A DNA stretch of 5,669 nucleotides from a virus. Taxonomy: Duplodnaviria > Heunggongvirae > Uroviricota > Caudoviricetes. The DNA is taken from IMG/VR virus record IMGVR_UViG_3300029253_000142. One strand, 5' to 3'. Below the pieces are notes generated by a model. That model ran no database searches, had not been told where the DNA came from, and was given only the letters and a program-made list of their open reading frames with translations. Every line of letters starts with the position of its first letter. Position 1 is the stretch's first letter. Made by a program: the position numbers and the translations under genes. Of this stretch, positions 1-5,669 are shown piece by piece.

Positions 1-102
1 ACTACTTATTTGGTGGACACCACTTTGTCTAATTCGTCAGATTCTGACCAGACGGTTCAGGCTGTACGCTTACGTTTTATCAGGGGAATTATCGGGAGGT
101 GA
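1..102 (+). CDS. 3' end of an upstream gene (partial, product unknown)
   Basis: Frame 1 is open from position 1 to a TGA at 100-102 (TTYLVDTTLSNSSDSDQTVQAVRLRFIRGIIGR*). The Shine-Dalgarno of the next gene (GGGAGG, 94-99) lies within its last codons, an operon-like arrangement. Too short to assign a product. Confidence 0.3.
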   Translation, partial: TTYLVDTTLSNSSDSDQTVQAVRLRFIRGIIGR

Positions 103-106
103 TGCT

Positions 107-340
107 GTGAGTACATCGGCTACCATTCTCGACATGTGCTGTGGCAGTCGCATGCTCTGGTTCGATAAGAATGACGAATGGTCGATATTTAGCGATATCA
201 GGAAAGAGGAACATTCGCTATGTGATGGACGTCACCCGATTATTAATCCCGACATTATAGCTGATTTTCGTGCGCTGCCGTGGTTGTCTGCTTTGCATCA
301 AAAGCAGACATTACCAGATTTAGACATCTGTTTCCGATAG
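107..340 (+). CDS. 77-aa hypothetical protein; N-terminus resembles a class I SAM-dependent methyltransferase fragment (possible remnant)
   Basis: GTG start at 107 is preceded by a strong SD (GGGAGG, 94-99). Residues ILDMCCGS resemble SAM-binding motif I (hhDxGCGxG) and [10 protein letters not shown] resembles the DAxxLPF motif of small-molecule methyltransferases. At 77 aa it is too short to be a complete methyltransferase fold. Confidence 0.45.
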
Positions 341-1496: not shown

Positions 1497-1559
1497 GGCT
1501 GCGGGTGCTTGAGGCTATCTGCCTCGGGCATGAACACCAACGGCAGATAGAGAAAAGCC

Positions 1560-1625
1560 CCAGTTAACATTACGCGTCCTGCAAGACGCTTAACATTAAT
1601 CTGAGGCCAATTTCATGCTAGACAC
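1560..1625 (-). ncRNA. Candidate Sok-like antisense RNA covering the mok translation-initiation region
   Basis: By analogy with hok/sok loci, Sok is encoded antisense to the mok SD/start. A weak minus-strand promoter (TTGCCT, plus 1658-1653; TAACCT, plus 1635-1630) would start transcription near 1623. A hairpin GCGTC/GACGC (1574-1589) is flanked by a 9-bp direct repeat TTAACATTA. Boundaries are guesses. Confidence 0.2.
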
Positions 1626-1827
1626 ATGTAGGTTAGCCTCTTACGTGCCGAAAGGCAAGGAGAAGCAGGCTATGAAGCAGCAAAAGGCGATGTTAATCGC
1701 CCTGATCGTCATCTGTTTAACCGTCATAGTGACGGCACTGGTAACGAGGAAAGACCTCTGCGAGGTACGAATCCGAACCGGCCAGACGGAGGTCGCTGTC
1801 TTCACAGCTTACGAACCTGAGGAGTAA
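1615..1827 (+). CDS. mok-like reading frame (in-frame upstream extension of hok)
   Basis: ATG at 1615 with GAGG at 1603-1606 upstream; 70 codons in the same frame and with the same stop as hok, matching the Mok/Hok arrangement as I recall it from annotated chromosomal hok loci. Confidence 0.4.
   Translation: MLDTCRLASYVPKGKEKQAMKQQKAMLIALIVICLTVIVTALVTRKDLCEVRIRTGQTEVAVFTAYEPEE
1672..1827 (+). CDS. hokD: Hok/Gef-family type I toxin, 51 aa, matching HokD (RelF) as recalled
   Basis: Translation MKQQKAMLIALIVICLTVIVTALVTRKDLCEVRIRTGQTEVAVFTAYEPEE has a single transmembrane helix and the Hok signature, and matches my recollection of HokD/RelF. Strong SD AAGGAG (1656-1661) precedes ATG 1672; stop TAA at 1825-1827. 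Confidence 0.9.
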   Translation: MKQQKAMLIALIVICLTVIVTALVTRKDLCEVRIRTGQTEVAVFTAYEPEE

Positions 1828-2361: not shown

Positions 2362-2640
2362 ATGGCACGCAACGCAAAATATTACAAACATGATAATTCG
2401 ACCGTTCTTGCCCACACGCACGAGCGGTATTCTCACGCATTTAAGTCAGACTGGTACCAGCATCCCCCATGCACTGAAGAACAGGCCGAATGGCTCATTC
2501 AGTGTTACCGCAGGCGCGGATGCGAGGTTAAAAAAGCCCTTAGCCTCGACTACCGTCACTGGATAATCTCCGTCAGGCTTCCTTACTCCGAACGCCCACC
2601 GCGTCCGTCCCGCACATTCCAGCAACGCATCTGGAGGTAA
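2362..2640 (+). CDS. Hypothetical protein, 92 aa, apparently translationally coupled to the ydfU-like gene
   Basis: SD GGAGA (2351-2355) before ATG 2362. Stop TAA at 2638-2640 lies 1 nt before the GTG start of the next gene. No recognisable family. Confidence 0.45.
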   Translation: MARNAKYYKHDNSTVLAHTHERYSHAFKSDWYQHPPCTEEQAEWLIQCYRRRGCEVKKALSLDYRHWIISVRLPYSERPPRPSRTFQQRIWR

Positions 2641-2641
2641 C

Positions 2642-3691
2642 GTGCGGGTATTACTTCGACCTGTTCTGGTACCGGAGCTCGGGCTGGTGATCGTTAAGCC
2701 GGGCCGTGAATCCATGCCGGTATTCCACAATACCCGGGTACTGGTGGAGCCGGAACCGAAAAGCATGCGTAATCTGTCGTCCGGGGTCGTTCCTGCCGTT
2801 CGCCAGCCGCTGGCGGAGGATAAATCATTACTGCCATTTTTCAGCGACGAACGAGTGATTCGTGCTGCTGGTGGTGCTGGCGCATTGTCTGACTGGTTAC
2901 TGCGCCATGTTAAATCCTGCCAGTGGCCACACGGCGATTATCACCACAGTGAAACCGTCATTCACCGTTATGGTACCGGCGCAATGGTGTTGTGCTGGCA
3001 CTGCGACAACCAGCTGCGTGACCAGACATCCGAATCACTCGGGCAACTTGCTCATCAAAACCTGTCTGCATGGATGATTGACGTCATCGGTCACGCAATA
3101 AGCGGTACGCAGGAGCGTGAATTATCTCTGGCTGAATTATCCTGGTGGGCGGTCCGCAATCAGGTGGCGGACGCGCTACCGGAAGCGGTATTACGTCGTT
3201 CGCTGGGGTTGCGTGCGGAAAAAATCCGCTCAATGTACCGTGAAAGCGACATCGTACCGGGAGAGCAGACCGCCACCAGCATACTGAAACAGCGCACAAA
3301 AAATCTTGCGCCGCTGCCTCACGCCCACCAGCAACAGAACCCACCACAGGAAAAGGCGGTGGTCAGTATCGCCGTTGATCCGGAGTCTCCGGAATCTTTC
3401 ATGAAGCGGCCTAAACGTCGCCGTTGGGTAAATGAGAAATACAAACGCTGGGTAAAGACACAGCCGTGCGTGTGTTGTGGTAAGCCAGCCGACGATCCCC
3501 ATCACCTGATTGGTCATGGTCAGGGAGGTATGGGGACAAAAGCCCACGATATTTTCACGCTACCGCTGTGTCGGGAGCATCACAACGAGCTTCATGCGGA
3601 TCCGCTGGCGTTCGAAGAAAAGCATGGTTCTCAGGTTGATTTAATTTTTCGTTTTCTTGATCACGCCTTTGCAACTGGCGTGCTTGGGTAA
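2642..3691 (+). CDS. ydfU: YdfU-like DUF968 protein (349 aa) with Cys/His-rich, HNH/zinc-finger-like motifs
   Basis: GTG 2642 preceded by SD GGAGG (2633-2637). The C-terminus carries CVCCGKP...HH...CREHHNELH and an internal CQWPHGDYHH...CWHCDNQ cluster. Size and position upstream of Q match Qin-prophage YdfU. Confidence 0.8.
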   Translation: MRVLLRPVLVPELGLVIVKPGRESMPVFHNTRVLVEPEPKSMRNLSSGVVPAVRQPLAEDKSLLPFFSDERVIRAAGGAGALSDWLLRHVKSCQWPHGDYHHSETVIHRYGTGAMVLCWHCDNQLRDQTSESLGQLAHQNLSAWMIDVIGHAISGTQERELSLAELSWWAVRNQVADALPEAVLRRSLGLRAEKIRSMYRESDIVPGEQTATSILKQRTKNLAPLPHAHQQQNPPQEKAVVSIAVDPESPESFMKRPKRRRWVNEKYKRWVKTQPCVCCGKPADDPHHLIGHGQGGMGTKAHDIFTLPLCREHHNELHADPLAFEEKHGSQVDLIFRFLDHAFATGVLG

Positions 3692-3703: not shown

Positions 3704-4063
3704 ATGCTCATAGATTTGGTTTTACCTTACCCGCCGACGGTGAACACTTACTGGCGACGCCGTGGCAGCACATATTTTATCTCGGAGGAGGGAAAGCGTT
3801 ATCGCCGGGCTGTGGCGCTTATTGTTCGCCAGCAGCGGCTGAAATTAAGCCTGTCCGGAAGGCTGGTAATCAGGATTATTGCAGAGCCACCGGATAATCG
3901 CCGTCGCGACCTGGACAATATCCTGAAAGCGCCGCTGGATGCGCTGACGCATGCAGGACTGTTAATGGACGATGAGCAGTTTGATGAAATCAATATTGTA
4001 CGTGGCCAGCCAGTATCAGGTGGACGGCTGGAGATAAAAATTACAGAGGTGGGGTGTGCATGA
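3704..4063 (+). CDS. rusA: RusA-family crossover junction endodeoxyribonuclease (Holliday junction resolvase)
   Basis: 119 aa with the conserved RusA pattern (PDNRRRDLDN, LDAL, GGRLE near the C-terminus), closely paralleling E. coli RusA as I recall it. SD AAGAGGT (3692-3698) precedes ATG 3704. Confidence 0.9.
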   Translation: MLIDLVLPYPPTVNTYWRRRGSTYFISEEGKRYRRAVALIVRQQRLKLSLSGRLVIRIIAEPPDNRRRDLDNILKAPLDALTHAGLLMDDEQFDEINIVRGQPVSGGRLEIKITEVGCA

Positions 4064-4749
4064 ATAACCAGTATTTACAGTTTGTTCGTGAGCAACTCAT
4101 GATTGCCACAGCGGATCTCAGTGGGCCGACAAAAGGCCAGCTGGAAGCCTGGCAGGAAAATGCCCTGTTCGATACAGGGCGTTACAGACGCAAAAAAATT
4201 CGTTACCGCGATGAGGTAACCGGAAAAATGATCACGCGGGATAACCCACCGATCCCGGGTAAACAATCACTGGCGAAAGGCTCATCAATTGCGCTGGTCA
4301 GTCCGGTTGAGTTTGCAACATCATCGTGGCGGCGTGCCGTTCTGGAACTGGAAGAACATCAGAAGGCGTGGTTGTTGTGGTGTTATGGCGGAAACATTTG
4401 CTGGGAGCATCAGATCGCGATAACGCAGTGGGTGTGGAGTGAATTTAAAACTCAGTCCGGCTCCAGAAAAATTGCAGTGAAAACGCTGGAGCGTGTGAAG
4501 AAGTTGATCTGGCTGGCGGCACAGGATGTCAGAGGATGGGTTACCGGGTGTGAGGTCTACCAGAGACAGGAGCTTGCCAGACTGTGTGGAGTTAAGCCTG
4601 ATAACTGGAGCCATAATTATGCGAACTACTGGCGTGAGATGTGCGATATTTTTAAGCGCCTCGATAGAGAATCCTTGATTTGCTCCGTGAAAATAAGAGC
4701 GCAACAAAAAGCGACCTTTTCACGACGAGATATTGCAAAAGTCAATTAA
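4060..4749 (+). CDS. Putative late-gene antitermination protein Q (QuuQ/YdfT-like)
   Basis: 229-aa ORF whose ATG (4060) overlaps the rusA stop (ATGA), with SD GAGGT at 4046-4050. It sits directly downstream of rusA/ydfU, where lambdoid phages carry Q, and is followed by promoter-like elements and an intrinsic terminator. The assignment is mainly positional; I do not recognise the Q fold from sequence. Confidence 0.55.
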   Translation: MNNQYLQFVREQLMIATADLSGPTKGQLEAWQENALFDTGRYRRKKIRYRDEVTGKMITRDNPPIPGKQSLAKGSSIALVSPVEFATSSWRRAVLELEEHQKAWLLWCYGGNICWEHQIAITQWVWSEFKTQSGSRKIAVKTLERVKKLIWLAAQDVRGWVTGCEVYQRQELARLCGVKPDNWSHNYANYWREMCDIFKRLDRESLICSVKIRAQQKATFSRRDIAKVN

Positions 4750-4761
4750 ATCGCGTATGTT
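4733..4761 (+). promoter_or_regulatory. Candidate late promoter (PR'-like, TTGCAA-N17-TATGTT) overlapping the Q stop codon, with -10-like repeats downstream
   Basis: -35 TTGCAA at 4733-4738, 17-bp spacer, -10 TATGTT at 4756-4761. -10-like elements TATAAA (4765-4770) and GATATT (4774-4779) fall in the predicted early transcribed region, reminiscent of sigma-dependent pause elements at qut sites. Not validated. Confidence 0.25.
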
Positions 4762-4810
4762 TCGTATAAATCTGATATTTTGCCGATTTTGTACGTGATG
4801 GCAAAGTAAG

Positions 4811-4839
4811 AAAAAACCACCGCCAGGTGGTTTTTTTTA
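4811..4839 (+). terminator. Rho-independent terminator after Q (possible tR'), A-tract/T-tract flanked
   Basis: AAAAAA, stem CCACC (4817-4821) / GGTGG (4826-4830) with GCCA loop, then TTTTTTTT (4831-4838). The symmetric A/T flanks mean it could terminate in both directions. Confidence 0.7.
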
Positions 4840-4961
4840 TGTCCGAAAATCGCGTCAGTACAGTAAATGCGCTGGTGGCGGTGAATACCTGTCTTTCAGC
4901 TTGCTGGCTTTTTCGACAAGAGTTATTGGTGTGTCACGTTAACCGGAAAAGGGAAAAAGAC

Positions 4962-5159
4962 ATGCTAAAACAGCAGGATATGACAGAAACCGCCAGAGTA
5001 GTGTTTAATGAATTAAGCGTTACCGAACCGGCGACAGTCGGGGAGATTGCACAGAATACTTACCTTTCACGCGAACGCTGCCAGTTAATACTGACCCAGC
5101 TGGTTATGGCGGGTCTGGCAGACTATCAGTTCGGTTGTTACAGACGCCTTCCGCAGTGA
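4962..5159 (+). CDS. Small hypothetical protein (about 66 aa) of unknown function
   Basis: ATG 4962 is preceded by AAGGGA (about 4948-4953). The sequence MLKQQDMTETARVVFNELSVTEPATVGEIAQNTYLSRERCQLILTQLVMAGLADY has the feel of a helix-turn-helix or winged-helix regulator, but this is only an impression. The in-frame ATG 4839 is an alternative start but lies in the terminator T-tract with no SD. Confidence 0.5.
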   Translation: MLKQQDMTETARVVFNELSVTEPATVGEIAQNTYLSRERCQLILTQLVMAGLADYQFGCYRRLPQ

Positions 5160-5172
5160 AGGCTTTTTTATT
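5146..5172 (+). terminator. Rho-independent terminator at the end of the small ORF
   Basis: Stem GCCTTC (5146-5151) / GAAGGC (5158-5163), 6-nt loop containing the stop codon, followed by TTTTTTATTT. Confidence 0.6.
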
Positions 5173-5186
5173 TGTGGTAAATGGGC

Positions 5187-5217
5187 GGCTGGTGGGTGTT
5201 AGGGGCACCCACCAGCC
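5187..5217. repeat. Perfect 12-bp GC-rich inverted repeat (GGCTGGTGGGTG / CACCCACCAGCC, 7-nt loop)
   Basis: Exact reverse-complement arms at 5187-5198 and 5206-5217. No U-tract follows on either strand, so it is not a classical terminator; function unknown. Confidence 0.5.
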
Positions 5218-5258
5218 ATCTGCTCATGCGTCCGGATCACAAGCAAACCTCAGGCCCA

Positions 5259-5277
5259 CTGCTTTGCGCAAAAGCAG
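5259..5277. promoter_or_regulatory. Palindrome CTGCTTTGCGCAAAAGCAG about 33 bp upstream of the methyltransferase start; candidate operator
   Basis: 7-bp arms CTGCTTT / AAAGCAG around a GCGCA centre, with a perfectly palindromic TTTGCGCAAA core. Its position suggests a regulator-binding site in the methyltransferase promoter region. Confidence 0.3.
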
Positions 5278-5309
5278 AATGAGCCTATCAGAGACAGGCT
5301 TAATGATCC

Positions 5310-5669
5310 ATGCTTAATACTGTAAAAATATCCAGTTGTGAGTTAATCAACGCCGACTGCCTGGAATTTATCCGGTCGTTACCCGAAAATTCTGTTGACC
5401 TGATAGTCACGGACCCGCCGTACTTTAAAGTGAAGCCTGAGGGCTGGGATAACCAGTGGAAGGGCGACGATGATTACCTGAAGTGGCTGGACCAGTGTCT
5501 GGCGCAGTTCTGGCGGGTGCTGAAACCTGCCGGAAGTCTTTACCTGTTCTGTGGTCATCGCCTGGCATCTGATATCGAAATCATGATGCGTGAACGCTTC
5601 AGTGTGCTGAACCATATTATCTGGGCGAAGCCGTCCGGACGCTGGAACGGATGCAACAAGGAAAGCCTG
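5310..5669 (+). CDS. DNA N6-adenine methyltransferase, beta-class, YhdJ-like (5' partial; runs off window end)
   Basis: Translation MLNTVKISSCELINADCLEFIRSLPENSVDLIVTDPPYF... carries the DPPY catalytic motif preceded by a region resembling the N-terminus of E. coli YhdJ (VDLIFADPPYN). In-frame stops at 5301-5306 fix ATG 5310 as the first possible start; the SD is weak. The frame is open to the last base of the window. Confidence 0.85.
   Translation, partial: MLNTVKISSCELINADCLEFIRSLPENSVDLIVTDPPYFKVKPEGWDNQWKGDDDYLKWLDQCLAQFWRVLKPAGSLYLFCGHRLASDIEIMMRERFSVLNHIIWAKPSGRWNGCNKESL

What the first reader, a model, noticed from the sequence alone, without database searches (positions are those of the whole stretch)
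4962..5669. Small ORF, palindromic site and orphan-looking adenine methyltransferase downstream of Q
A small ORF of about 66 aa ends in its own terminator (5146-5172). It is followed by a perfect 12-bp GC-rich hairpin (5187-5217) and a palindrome CTGCTTTGCGCAAAAGCAG (5259-5277) about 33 bp before a YhdJ-like DPPY adenine methyltransferase. If the small protein is a DNA-binding regulator, this resembles a controller-protein/operator/methyltransferase arrangement. No restriction gene is visible before the window ends, so it may instead be a phage self-protection (anti-restriction) methylase.
Basis: partly seen in the sequence, partly recalled or inferred. Interest (0 to 1): 0.5.

Follow-up and report, generated by a model that had tools for sequence, protein, structure and literature searches.

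The report
Prophage late-operon EcoGII-type adenine methylase cassette
This is the start of a lambdoid prophage late operon carrying a known "methylate-any-adenine" enzyme (M.EcoGII family) that phages are thought to use to evade restriction; the only new lead is that it travels with a small winged-helix gene and a folded leader that probably keep this toxic enzyme switched off.

Summary
The described features are real, with two small corrections. The ORF is 65 aa (4962-5159). The 19-mer palindrome is really 7-bp arms around a 5-nt spacer.

The methyltransferase is not a mystery. [quoted passage not shown] The closest full-length relative is 91% identical and keeps DPPY and FxGxG.

About 110 related loci with downstream sequence were examined. 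What follows the methylase is tRNAs, stx or nanS, HicAB or lysis genes, never a restriction gene. The cassette sits after a phage-82-type Q and its terminator, and matches 2520 of 5426 complete E. coli genomes. The self-protection reading is therefore supported. The controller-protein/R-M reading is not, because the small protein is a winged helix, not an Xre-type C protein.

What seems undescribed in the literature I could search:
- The small gene and the methylase stay linked at about 150 nt across more than 12 genera.
- The spacer is conserved far above neutral.
- The spacer folds into two hairpins supported by wobble and compensatory changes; the second buries the methylase start codon.

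A Mu com-mom-like gate is plausible but untested. Overall this is an ordinary, known cassette with one modest new lead.

The parts
4054..4749 (+). Late-gene antiterminator Q (231 aa), phage-82 type
   Evidence: PF06323, E = 4.6e-84. 77% nt identity to phage 82 Q, record X92588.
4733..4770 (+). Inferred late promoter pR' / Q-loading region: TTGCAA-17 nt-TATGTT, then a -10-like TATAAA
   Evidence: Read from the sequence and placed by analogy with lambdoid pR'. It was not called by the consensus scan, so this is inference only. There is a weak isrK-like Rfam hit at 4759-4837, E = 0.69.
4811..4838 (+). tR'-type intrinsic terminator directly after pR'
   Evidence: 11-bp perfect stem plus a T8 run. 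MFE -16.7 kcal/mol, z = -5.6. Homology to Stx2 phages that carry other Q types begins here, at query position 64. A hairpin plus T-run is present at this place in most of the 24 loci aligned across genera, with different stem sequences.
4900..4937 (+). Conserved motif CTTGCTG-N17-TATTGG..TGTCAC about 25-60 nt before the small ORF; possibly a weak promoter
   Evidence: It is the only conserved block in an otherwise unconserved leader across 23 of the 24 loci aligned; Buttiauxella L108 lacks it. It has no consistent RNA fold. Its sigma-70 likeness is weak, so its function is unknown.
4962..5159 (+). Small ORF, 65 aa, minimal winged-helix protein (PHROG 331, 'TrmB family' in some RefSeq records)
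5146..5172 (+). Second terminator-like hairpin (T2) overlapping the small ORF stop codon
   Evidence: Called. The hairpin is kept in other genera by changed stems (CTTC/GAAG; CTCC/GGAG or GGGG; CTCCGC/GCGGAG). The U-tract is strong only in Escherichia and Enterobacter.
5181..5227 (+). Hairpin A: 14-bp upper stem containing the 12-bp perfect repeat 5187-5217, a 4-nt internal loop and a 6-bp lower stem. The left arm contains Chi (5188-5195); the right arm contains Chi on the minus strand (5209-5216).
   Evidence: MFE -33.7 kcal/mol, z = -5.5. All 25 distinct variants fold, at -22 to -33 kcal/mol. Among close relatives the 3'-arm changes are C-to-U or A-to-G opposite G or U; more distant genera add a one-base bulge. 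Salmonella and Cronobacter keep the stem by compensatory changes that destroy Chi. The hairpin stays with the small ORF when the methylase is replaced in L013.
5234..5309 (+). Hairpin B: four-tier stem-loop whose closing helix GGAUCA/UGAUCC ends at -1 of the methylase AUG.
   Evidence: MFE -29 kcal/mol, z = -4.0. All 30 distinct variants adopt the same fold. 99% of cells are paired against 17-40% in slid controls. Covarying pairs include G-C/G-U/A-U in the closing pair, AAGCA/UGCUU with AAGCG/CGCUU, and CUG/CAG with CUG/CGG and CCG/CGG. No Shine-Dalgarno sequence precedes the AUG.
5310..5669 (+). First 120 codons of an M.EcoGI/M.EcoGII-family beta-class N6-adenine DNA methyltransferase; the gene runs off the window
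   Evidence: 119/120 identical to M.EcoGII as printed in the PMC11551740 supplement. Pfam N6_N4_Mtase. The closest full-length relative (L001, 352 aa) is 91% identical to M.EcoGII and has DPPY and FFMGSGST.

Best explanation
The segment is the promoter-proximal 'moron' slot of a lambdoid (phage-82-type Q) prophage late operon. Its order is pR', tR', a small winged-helix gene, a second terminator, two RNA hairpins, and an M.EcoGII-family methyltransferase. In relatives this is followed by tRNAs, sometimes stx, nanS-p and the lysis genes.

The methyltransferase is an orphan beta-class enzyme. By near-identity to M.EcoGII it should put N6-methyl on adenines in any sequence context. It is made only when Q lets RNA polymerase read through tR' and the second terminator late in lytic growth. 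Progeny phage DNA is then heavily methylated before packaging and escapes many restriction systems in the next host. In the lysogen the enzyme would be toxic and is kept off.

Three layers of silencing are visible or inferred.
1. Two intrinsic terminators lie between the constitutive late promoter and the gene. The sequence shows this directly; Q dependence is inferred from lambdoid biology.
2. The leader hairpin (B) pairs everything from -1 to about -15 of a start codon that has no Shine-Dalgarno sequence. The fold and its conservation are shown; the effect on translation is inferred.
3. The co-transcribed 65-aa winged-helix protein acts on this leader, most likely as a Com-like post-transcriptional activator. 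Under this model methylase is made only when late transcription is sustained. This step is inference from linkage and analogy and is the weakest.
For: Identity of the enzyme:
- 119/120 identical to M.EcoGII, and 91% over the full length of the nearest relative.
- The M.EcoGII paper names phage 1720a-02 as carrying a very similar enzyme. That phage is my best phage hit, at 96% nt identity.
- M.EcoGII is non-specific, silent in its lysogen and harmful when expressed (PMC5778455; PMC12707154).

Orphan status:
- No restriction gene follows in L001, L002, 75 IMG/VR loci, 18 species-level genomes, or the Klebsiella, Salmonella, Pantoea, Cronobacter, Mixta and Erwinia contigs.
- PADLOC matches only methyltransferase models.

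Late-operon position:
- Q (PF06323) lies immediately upstream, followed by tR'.
- Lysis genes lie downstream.

Linkage of the small gene and the methylase:
- 75 of 76 viral loci with room, and 18 of 18 species genomes, at a spacing of about 150 nt.

Constraint on the spacer:
- It is 70-77% identical to Klebsiella, against 39-44% at synonymous positions and 41-48% in the upstream leader.

RNA folds:
- z = -5.5 and -4.0.
- 25 and 30 distinct variants all fold.
- Substitutions are wobble-neutral or compensatory on the plus strand.

Accessory rather than subunit:
- Erwinia has the methylase without the small ORF and without hairpins A and B, so they behave as one accessory unit.
Against: - The window ends after codon 120, so the intactness of this copy is not shown.
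- No expression, methylation or binding data exist for this locus.
- pR' was placed by eye and was not called by the scan.
- Most pairs in the two hairpins never vary. Only 2 pairs show double changes in the automatic count, so the covariation evidence rests on a handful of events among related sequences.
- The small protein carries about -1 net charge and its third helix is largely hydrophobic (own reading of the sequence). It could therefore be a protein-binding rather than a nucleic-acid-binding winged helix.
- Recombinant M.EcoGII works alone, and the Erwinia homologue lacks the partner, so the small protein is dispensable for catalysis.
- Linkage might only reflect inheritance of one block.
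Confidence: 0.6

Rival explanations
1. The small winged-helix protein is a DNA-binding repressor or controller. As a dimer it binds the palindrome as a double-stranded operator between its own gene and the methylase, blocking a cryptic promoter or acting as a roadblock. This is a C-protein-like logic without an endonuclease.
For: The fold is that of MarR/ArsR/TrmB-type DNA binders. The core GCTTT..AAAGC is invariant, and in several genera it forms a perfect 16-bp palindrome GCTTTAGCGCTAAAGC. A second near-identical copy lies at window 288-307, with none expected by chance. The small gene has its own terminator and a conserved upstream motif, so it could be expressed separately.
Against: The distance between half-sites differs by 1 nt between Escherichia (5 nt) and other genera (6 nt). 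That is harmless for an RNA loop but awkward for an operator. G-U intermediates (CTG/CGG) are the commonest state in Stx2 phages. No convincing promoter lies in the spacer, and the -10-like TATCAG becomes TACCAG in many genera. The second copy is not kept as a palindrome in 39 of 80 queH loci, including two phages that carry the module. The protein is small and slightly acidic, and no separate dimerisation element is evident in the 65-aa model.
Confidence: 0.15
2. This is a remnant or variant of a C-protein-controlled Type II restriction-modification system whose endonuclease lies beyond the window or has been lost.
For: The gene order is small regulator-like gene, palindrome, Type II-like methyltransferase. 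PADLOC matches MTase_II at 1.8e-158.
Against: No endonuclease is present in any related locus; the downstream genes are tRNAs, stx, nanS, HicAB or lysis genes. The small protein is not an Xre-type HTH. The enzyme's close relative has no sequence specificity, which is incompatible with a cognate endonuclease (PMC5778455).
Confidence: 0.03
3. The small ORF is an independent moron with its own weak promoter and terminator, for example a regulator of host or other phage genes. Its adjacency to the methylase is only shared inheritance. The spacer hairpins are then 3'-end stabilisers, an RNase III site, or Chi-related DNA.
For: The small ORF plus T2 plus hairpin A persists where the methylase has been replaced (L013) or truncated (L084). 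The methylase exists alone in Erwinia. A conserved upstream motif and a terminator bracket the ORF. Chi is strongly enriched in the region and forms the left arm of hairpin A.
Against: Spacing is fixed and linkage near-universal across more than 12 genera, despite mosaic flanks with three Q types and several kinds of downstream cargo. Hairpin B, which abuts the methylase start, occurs only where the small ORF is present. Chi is lost while the stem is kept in Salmonella and Cronobacter.
Confidence: 0.2

Closest known systems
M.EcoGII / M.EcoGI (non-specific N6-adenine DNA/RNA methyltransferases of E. coli O104:H4 prophages; Murray et al. 2018, PMC5778455)
   Same: The 120 residues in the window are 119/120 identical; the single difference may be a machine-reading error in the supplement. 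The nearest full-length relative is 91% identical. Both share beta-class motif order (DPPY, TRD, FxGxG), a prophage location, and expected silence in the lysogen.
   Different: Only the N-terminal third is inside the window. Activity and lack of specificity are inferred, not measured, for this allele. The published work does not describe the Q/terminator context, the small upstream gene or the leader.
Phage Mu com-mom (small Com protein activates translation of the toxic DNA-modification gene mom by remodelling a start-site-occluding mRNA stem-loop; own knowledge. Mom and M.EcoGII are paired as 'silent in lysogens and toxic' in PMC12707154.)
   Same: A roughly 60-aa nucleic-acid-binding-type protein is encoded just upstream on the same late transcript. 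The downstream gene is a toxic, promiscuous DNA-modifying enzyme used against restriction. Its start codon is buried in a conserved stem-loop.
   Different: Com is a zinc-finger protein, whereas this one is a winged helix with only two conserved cysteines. com overlaps mom, whereas here there is a 150-nt spacer with a terminator. No homology exists, and neither binding nor activation has been tested.
Controller (C) proteins of Type II R-M systems (C.PvuII, C.AhdI, C.Esp1396I; own knowledge)
   Same: A small putative regulator sits next to a methyltransferase, with a nearby inverted repeat.
   Different: C proteins are Xre-type all-alpha HTH dimers. They bind C-boxes upstream of their own gene and time the expression of an endonuclease. 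Here the fold is winged helix, the repeat is downstream, and there is no endonuclease.
[quoted passage not shown]
   Same: The position and gene order are the same. The pair has already been noted descriptively in Stx2a phages.
   Different: This window comes from a non-Stx context, and its nearest relative has no stx. Earlier reports gave no function for the pair.
YhdJ (E. coli chromosomal beta-class adenine methyltransferase)
   Same: Same Pfam family (PF01555), with the DPPY motif near the N-terminus.
   Different: It is not an orthologue: PRK11524 scores 111.9 bits against a cut-off of 292. The phage enzyme also carries a central insertion of about 100 residues (TRD).

Membership tests
M.EcoGI/M.EcoGII family of non-specific beta-class N6-adenine methyltransferases | High sequence identity to M.EcoGII over the catalytic core | tested here: met
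   119/120 identical in the window. The L001 full-length relative is 318/349 identical. The reference sequence was taken from the PMC11551740 supplement.
M.EcoGI/M.EcoGII family of non-specific beta-class N6-adenine methyltransferases | Motif order DPPY (N-terminal), central TRD, FxGxG (C-terminal) | tested here: inconclusive
   DPPY is at residues 35-38 in the window. FFMGSGST was seen only in relatives, because the window ends at codon 120.
M.EcoGI/M.EcoGII family of non-specific beta-class N6-adenine methyltransferases | Methylates adenine in any sequence context; silent in the lysogen; toxic when expressed | not testable with these tools
   Known for M.EcoGII itself (PMC5778455). Inferred here from identity.
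Controller (C)-protein regulated Type II R-M system | Xre-type helix-turn-helix C protein | tested here: not met
Controller (C)-protein regulated Type II R-M system | Linked restriction endonuclease gene | tested here: not met
   None in about 110 related loci with downstream sequence.
Controller (C)-protein regulated Type II R-M system | C-box operator upstream of the C gene | tested here: not met
   The inverted repeat lies 100 nt downstream of the small ORF. The conserved upstream motif at 4900-4937 is not palindromic.
MarR/TrmB-type winged-helix transcription regulators | Sequence match above the family threshold | tested here: not met
   TrmB scores 18.0 bits against 25.6, MarR_2 scores 14.7 against 27. 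NCBIfam has nothing above 12.4 bits.
MarR/TrmB-type winged-helix transcription regulators | Winged-helix fold | tested here: met
Mu com-mom type translational gate (functional analogy, not homology) | mRNA stem-loop occluding the start site of the modification gene | tested here: met
   The closing helix of hairpin B ends at -1 of the AUG and there is no SD. z = -4.0, and the fold is kept in 30 variants. This is an in silico result only.
Mu com-mom type translational gate (functional analogy, not homology) | Zinc-finger Com protein that binds the mRNA | tested here: not met
   Only two cysteines (C40, C59) are present and the fold is a winged helix. RNA binding is not testable here.
YhdJ orthologues | Score above the NCBIfam PRK11524 cut-off | tested here: not met
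   111.9 bits against 292.
Lambdoid Q-dependent late operon | Q gene, then a terminator, then cargo and lysis genes on one strand | tested here: met
   Q is PF06323 and tR' is present. tRNAs, nanS, holin and lysozyme lie downstream in L001. Promoter and qut were not verified.

The most novel reading that the evidence does not exclude
The 65-aa winged-helix protein and the conserved 130-nt two-hairpin leader form a dedicated gate for a toxic, non-specific adenine methyltransferase. The protein would bind the leader RNA (hairpin A or the apical stem-loop of hairpin B) and free the buried start codon. Methylase would then be made only after sustained Q-dependent late transcription. This would be a convergent, non-homologous counterpart of Mu com-mom, and a natural regulator of the widely used EcoGII enzyme.
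Probability: 0.2. Interest if true: 0.55.

Novelty: already known. Interest (0 to 1): 0.3.

Why it matters
M.EcoGII is a widely used tool enzyme. It is also a textbook example of a promiscuous phage methylase that is silent in lysogens, yet the published work I could read does not say how it is silenced. The context found here gives a concrete and testable answer:
- placement behind pR'-tR' plus a second terminator;
- a start codon buried in a conserved leader;
- a tightly linked winged-helix partner.

If the partner really gates or modulates the enzyme, it would be a new example of post-transcriptional control of an anti-restriction function in the prophages that also carry Shiga toxin. It might also be a useful handle for controlling EcoGII expression. 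If it does not, the locus is simply a very common, already annotated prophage cassette.

Tried and rejected
- Rfam, at both E-value and gathering thresholds, has nothing credible in 4840-5310. The only hit there is a sub-threshold P26 match on the minus strand, E = 0.45.
- The 110-aa extended ORF (4827-5159) is rejected. Its upstream part is only 41-48% identical across genera and changes frame.
- A sigma-70 promoter inside the spacer is rejected. None was called, and the best candidate, TTGCGC-16-TATCAG, loses its -10 in other genera.
- A 12-aa upstream ORF (5279-5317) overlapping the methylase start is unlikely. It has no SD, ATG is replaced by GTG, its length differs in other genera, and it shows no synonymous substitution pattern.
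- The second copy of the inverted repeat at 288-307 was tested as a second operator. It is significant in this window (local alignment score 30 against 14.9 +/- 2.0). However, it is not kept as a palindrome in most queH loci, nor in two phages that carry the module.
- Hairpin A as a conserved double Chi is rejected. Chi on both strands is specific to the Escherichia subgroup, and Salmonella and Cronobacter keep the stem but lose Chi.
- The PDB holds no solved structure of a close relative; the best match is 6.5e-26.
- PADLOC gives nothing meaningful for the small protein.
- Viral and PDB fold libraries return only generic winged-helix matches.
- An exhaustive HMMER search finds only 61 representative clusters, so no deeper family could inform function.
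Full report
**What is in the sequence.**
The window is a piece of a lambdoid prophage. In order it contains:
- an IS end (1-73);
- a truncated methyltransferase pseudogene and queH;
- sok/hokD;
- DUF968 and RusA;
- a Q antiterminator at 4054-4749 (PF06323, E = 4.6e-84), related to phage 82 Q.

- The small ORF runs from ATG 4962 to the stop at 5157-5159 and is 65 aa.
- A terminator-like hairpin (stem 5146-5163 plus a T-run) overlaps that stop codon.
- A perfect 12-bp inverted repeat lies at 5187-5198 and 5206-5217.
- A 7-bp-arm inverted repeat with a 5-nt spacer lies at 5259-5277. It is not a perfect 19-mer.
- A DPPY methyltransferase starts at ATG 5310 and runs off the window after 120 codons.
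- A further strong terminator at 4811-4838 lies directly after Q, between it and the small ORF.

**The methyltransferase is a known enzyme.**
- The 120 residues in the window are 119/120 identical to M.EcoGII as printed in the supplement of PMC11551740. The one difference (I versus H in NHIIWA) recurs in all sequences of that machine-read file and may be a reading error.
- The closest genome (98.4% nt identity, L001) encodes a 352-aa protein that is 91% identical to M.EcoGII, with both DPPY and FFMGSGST.
- The M.EcoGII paper says a very similar enzyme is in phage 1720a-02. That phage is my best phage hit, at 96% nt identity.
- M.EcoGII methylates adenine in any context in DNA and RNA, is not expressed in its lysogen, and slows growth when expressed (PMC5778455).
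- It is a relative of YhdJ, not an orthologue: 111.9 bits against a cut-off of 292.

**Context, and the question of a restriction gene.**
- The region matches 2520 of 5426 complete E. coli genomes and 32 phage records, mostly Stx2 phages.
- In annotated relatives the order is Q, hypothetical 65-aa protein, DNA methylase, tRNA-Ile/Met-Arg-Arg, then stx2AB or not, then nanS-p, holin and lysozyme.
- What follows the methylase in Klebsiella, Salmonella, Pantoea, Cronobacter, Mixta and Erwinia is HicAB, TerB-like genes or the lysis cassette. What precedes it is any of three antiterminator types.
- No endonuclease gene was seen in any locus, so the enzyme is an orphan in the late operon.
- Similarity to phages with other Q types begins at window 4813, which is the terminator. 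This fits pR'/qut belonging to Q and everything from tR' onward being a separate module.

**The small protein.**
- It is a real gene. Against Klebsiella, codon positions 1 and 2 are 82-91% identical while position 3 is only 39-44%. The sequence upstream of the ATG is unconserved, so the 110-aa extended ORF is not real.
- AlphaFold gives a confident minimal winged helix (pLDDT 91.7; H9-16, H26-33, H37-49, two strands).
- Pfam winged-helix hits fall below threshold. PHROG 331 has no assigned function.
- The family is tiny and confined to Enterobacterales prophages: 334 clusters, or 61 representatives out of 1.84 billion.
- It is therefore not a C protein in fold, operator position or genetic company.

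**Linkage.**
- The small ORF is followed by the methylase at about 150 nt in 75 of 76 IMG/VR loci with enough downstream sequence. The same holds in 18 of 18 species-level genomes, covering E. albertii, Kluyvera, Salmonella, Klebsiella, Citrobacter, Pseudocitrobacter, Buttiauxella, Scandinavium, Phytobacter and Enterobacter.
- The pairing also holds in Pantoea, Cronobacter and Mixta. In Mixta the small ORF is 53% identical over its first 53 residues and was not called by the gene finder.
- The exceptions are informative.
  - L013 keeps the small ORF, T2 and hairpin A, but the rest is replaced by another gene.
  - L084 has a truncated methylase.
  - Erwinia has the methylase (75% identical) with only a terminator upstream, with no small ORF and no hairpins A or B.
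- The small ORF and the structured spacer therefore behave as one accessory unit, not as an obligatory subunit of the enzyme.

**The spacer is a conserved, structured leader.**
- Positions 5181-5309 are 70-77% identical to Klebsiella, far above the synonymous-site level.
- The spacer folds into hairpin A (5181-5227, -33.7 kcal/mol, z = -5.5) and hairpin B (5234-5309, -29 kcal/mol, z = -4.0).
- Hairpin A:
  - All 25 distinct variants fold.
  - The G/U-rich 5' arm is almost invariant. Among close relatives the 3' arm toggles C/U and A/G opposite G and U, as expected for selection on plus-strand RNA pairing. More distant genera also carry a one-base bulge there.
  - Salmonella and Cronobacter carry compensatory changes.
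- Hairpin B:
  - All 30 variants adopt the same four-tier fold.
  - Its closing helix ends at -1 of the AUG.
  - Several pairs covary: G-C/G-U/A-U; AAGCA/UGCUU with AAGCG/CGCUU; and CUG/CAG with CUG/CGG and CCG/CGG.
- On a 25-sequence alignment 99% of cells pair, against 17-40% in slid controls. However, most pairs never vary and only two show double changes, so the statistical support from covariation is modest.
That suits an RNA loop better than a dimer operator.
- No Shine-Dalgarno sequence precedes the methylase AUG in any genus.

**How it most likely works.**
Shown:
- the identity of the enzyme;
- its orphan status;
- its place behind Q, tR' and a second terminator;
- the linked winged-helix gene;
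- the conserved fold that buries the start codon.

Inferred from lambdoid biology (own knowledge; PMC7547250 for pR'/tR' in Stx phages):
- pR' is constitutive and terminated at tR' in lysogens;
- Q-modified polymerase reads through both terminators late in infection.

Inferred from M.EcoGII biochemistry:
- progeny DNA becomes heavily N6-methylated and resists many restriction enzymes;
- silence in the lysogen avoids toxicity.

Most speculative:
- The winged-helix protein, made first from the same transcript, may act on the leader to allow translation. This would be analogous to Com acting on mom mRNA in phage Mu. A recent review already pairs Mom with M.EcoGII as silent and toxic (PMC12707154).
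- An activator fits better than a repressor, because a start site that is both occluded and SD-less would otherwise give too little enzyme. Neither direction has been tested.

**Rivals.**
- A DNA-operator/repressor role for the small protein remains possible (about 0.15).
- An unrelated moron function, with the hairpins acting as 3' stabilisers or processing sites, is also possible (about 0.2).
- An R-M remnant is close to excluded (about 0.03).

**Verdict.**
The self-protection reading is supported. The controller-protein reading is not supported as family membership, though a regulatory link is plausible. The cassette is common, annotated and built around a characterised enzyme, so overall novelty is low. 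The conserved partner gene and leader are a modest, testable new lead.

Noticed in passing
window 2867, 4871, 5188 (+) and 3273, 3325, 5209 (-); L111 whole phage: Chi (GCTGGTGG) occurs 6 times in 5.7 kb, against 0.2 expected. Phage 1720a-02 has 21 Chi in 47 kb, 17 of them in the direction of late transcription. From my own knowledge, that is the orientation recognised by RecBCD entering from the right cos end.
   Followed up: partly
window 288-307: There is a second copy of the inverted repeat, CTGCTTTGCATCAAAAGCAG, against CTGCTTTGCGCAAAAGCAG at 5259-5277. It lies about 90 nt upstream of queH, exactly where a truncated methyltransferase pseudogene ends. None is expected by chance. It is not kept as a palindrome in most queH loci.
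   Followed up: yes
window 1-73: This is the end of an insertion sequence, matching ISEc8-type ends in Stx2 phages at 99-100%. It abuts the DUF977/methyltransferase-pseudogene/queH block, which is 99.9% identical to a prophage of E. coli C and B.
   Followed up: partly
window 1503-1827: A sok antisense RNA (Rfam RF01794, 115 bits) and the hokD toxin ORF form a type I toxin-antitoxin pair. A sub-threshold isrK-like hit follows at 1836-1917 (E = 0.009).
   Followed up: no
window 4900-4937: The motif CTTGCTG-N17-TAT(T/C)(G/T)G..TGTCA is conserved in 23 of the 24 loci aligned (missing in Buttiauxella L108), at a fixed distance before the small ORF, inside an otherwise unconserved leader. It has weak sigma-70 likeness and no consistent RNA fold. 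If it is a promoter, the small gene is a self-contained moron that could be expressed in lysogens.
   Followed up: partly
window 4759-4837: The roughly 70-nt stretch from the inferred pR' start to tR' would give a short constitutive RNA, comparable to lambda 6S or StxS. Only weak Rfam similarity to isrK and Phe_leader was found (E = 0.13-0.69).
   Followed up: no
window 5234-5237 and 5305-5308: The two arms of the closing helix of hairpin B each contain a GATC (Dam) site. The 3' site, next to the start codon, is kept in 29 of the 30 variants (the L110 MAG has TAATCC), while the 5' site is often GGTC. Its significance is unknown.
   Followed up: no
L195 (Erwinia endophytica contig) 2440-3003: A 75%-identical methylase sits behind a terminator only, with no small ORF and no hairpins A or B. 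This is a natural 'minus-accessory' comparator.
   Followed up: partly
small protein residues 40 and 59: The only two cysteines are invariant across the 21 aligned homologues. That is too few for a zinc finger. A possible structural or redox role was not examined.
   Followed up: no
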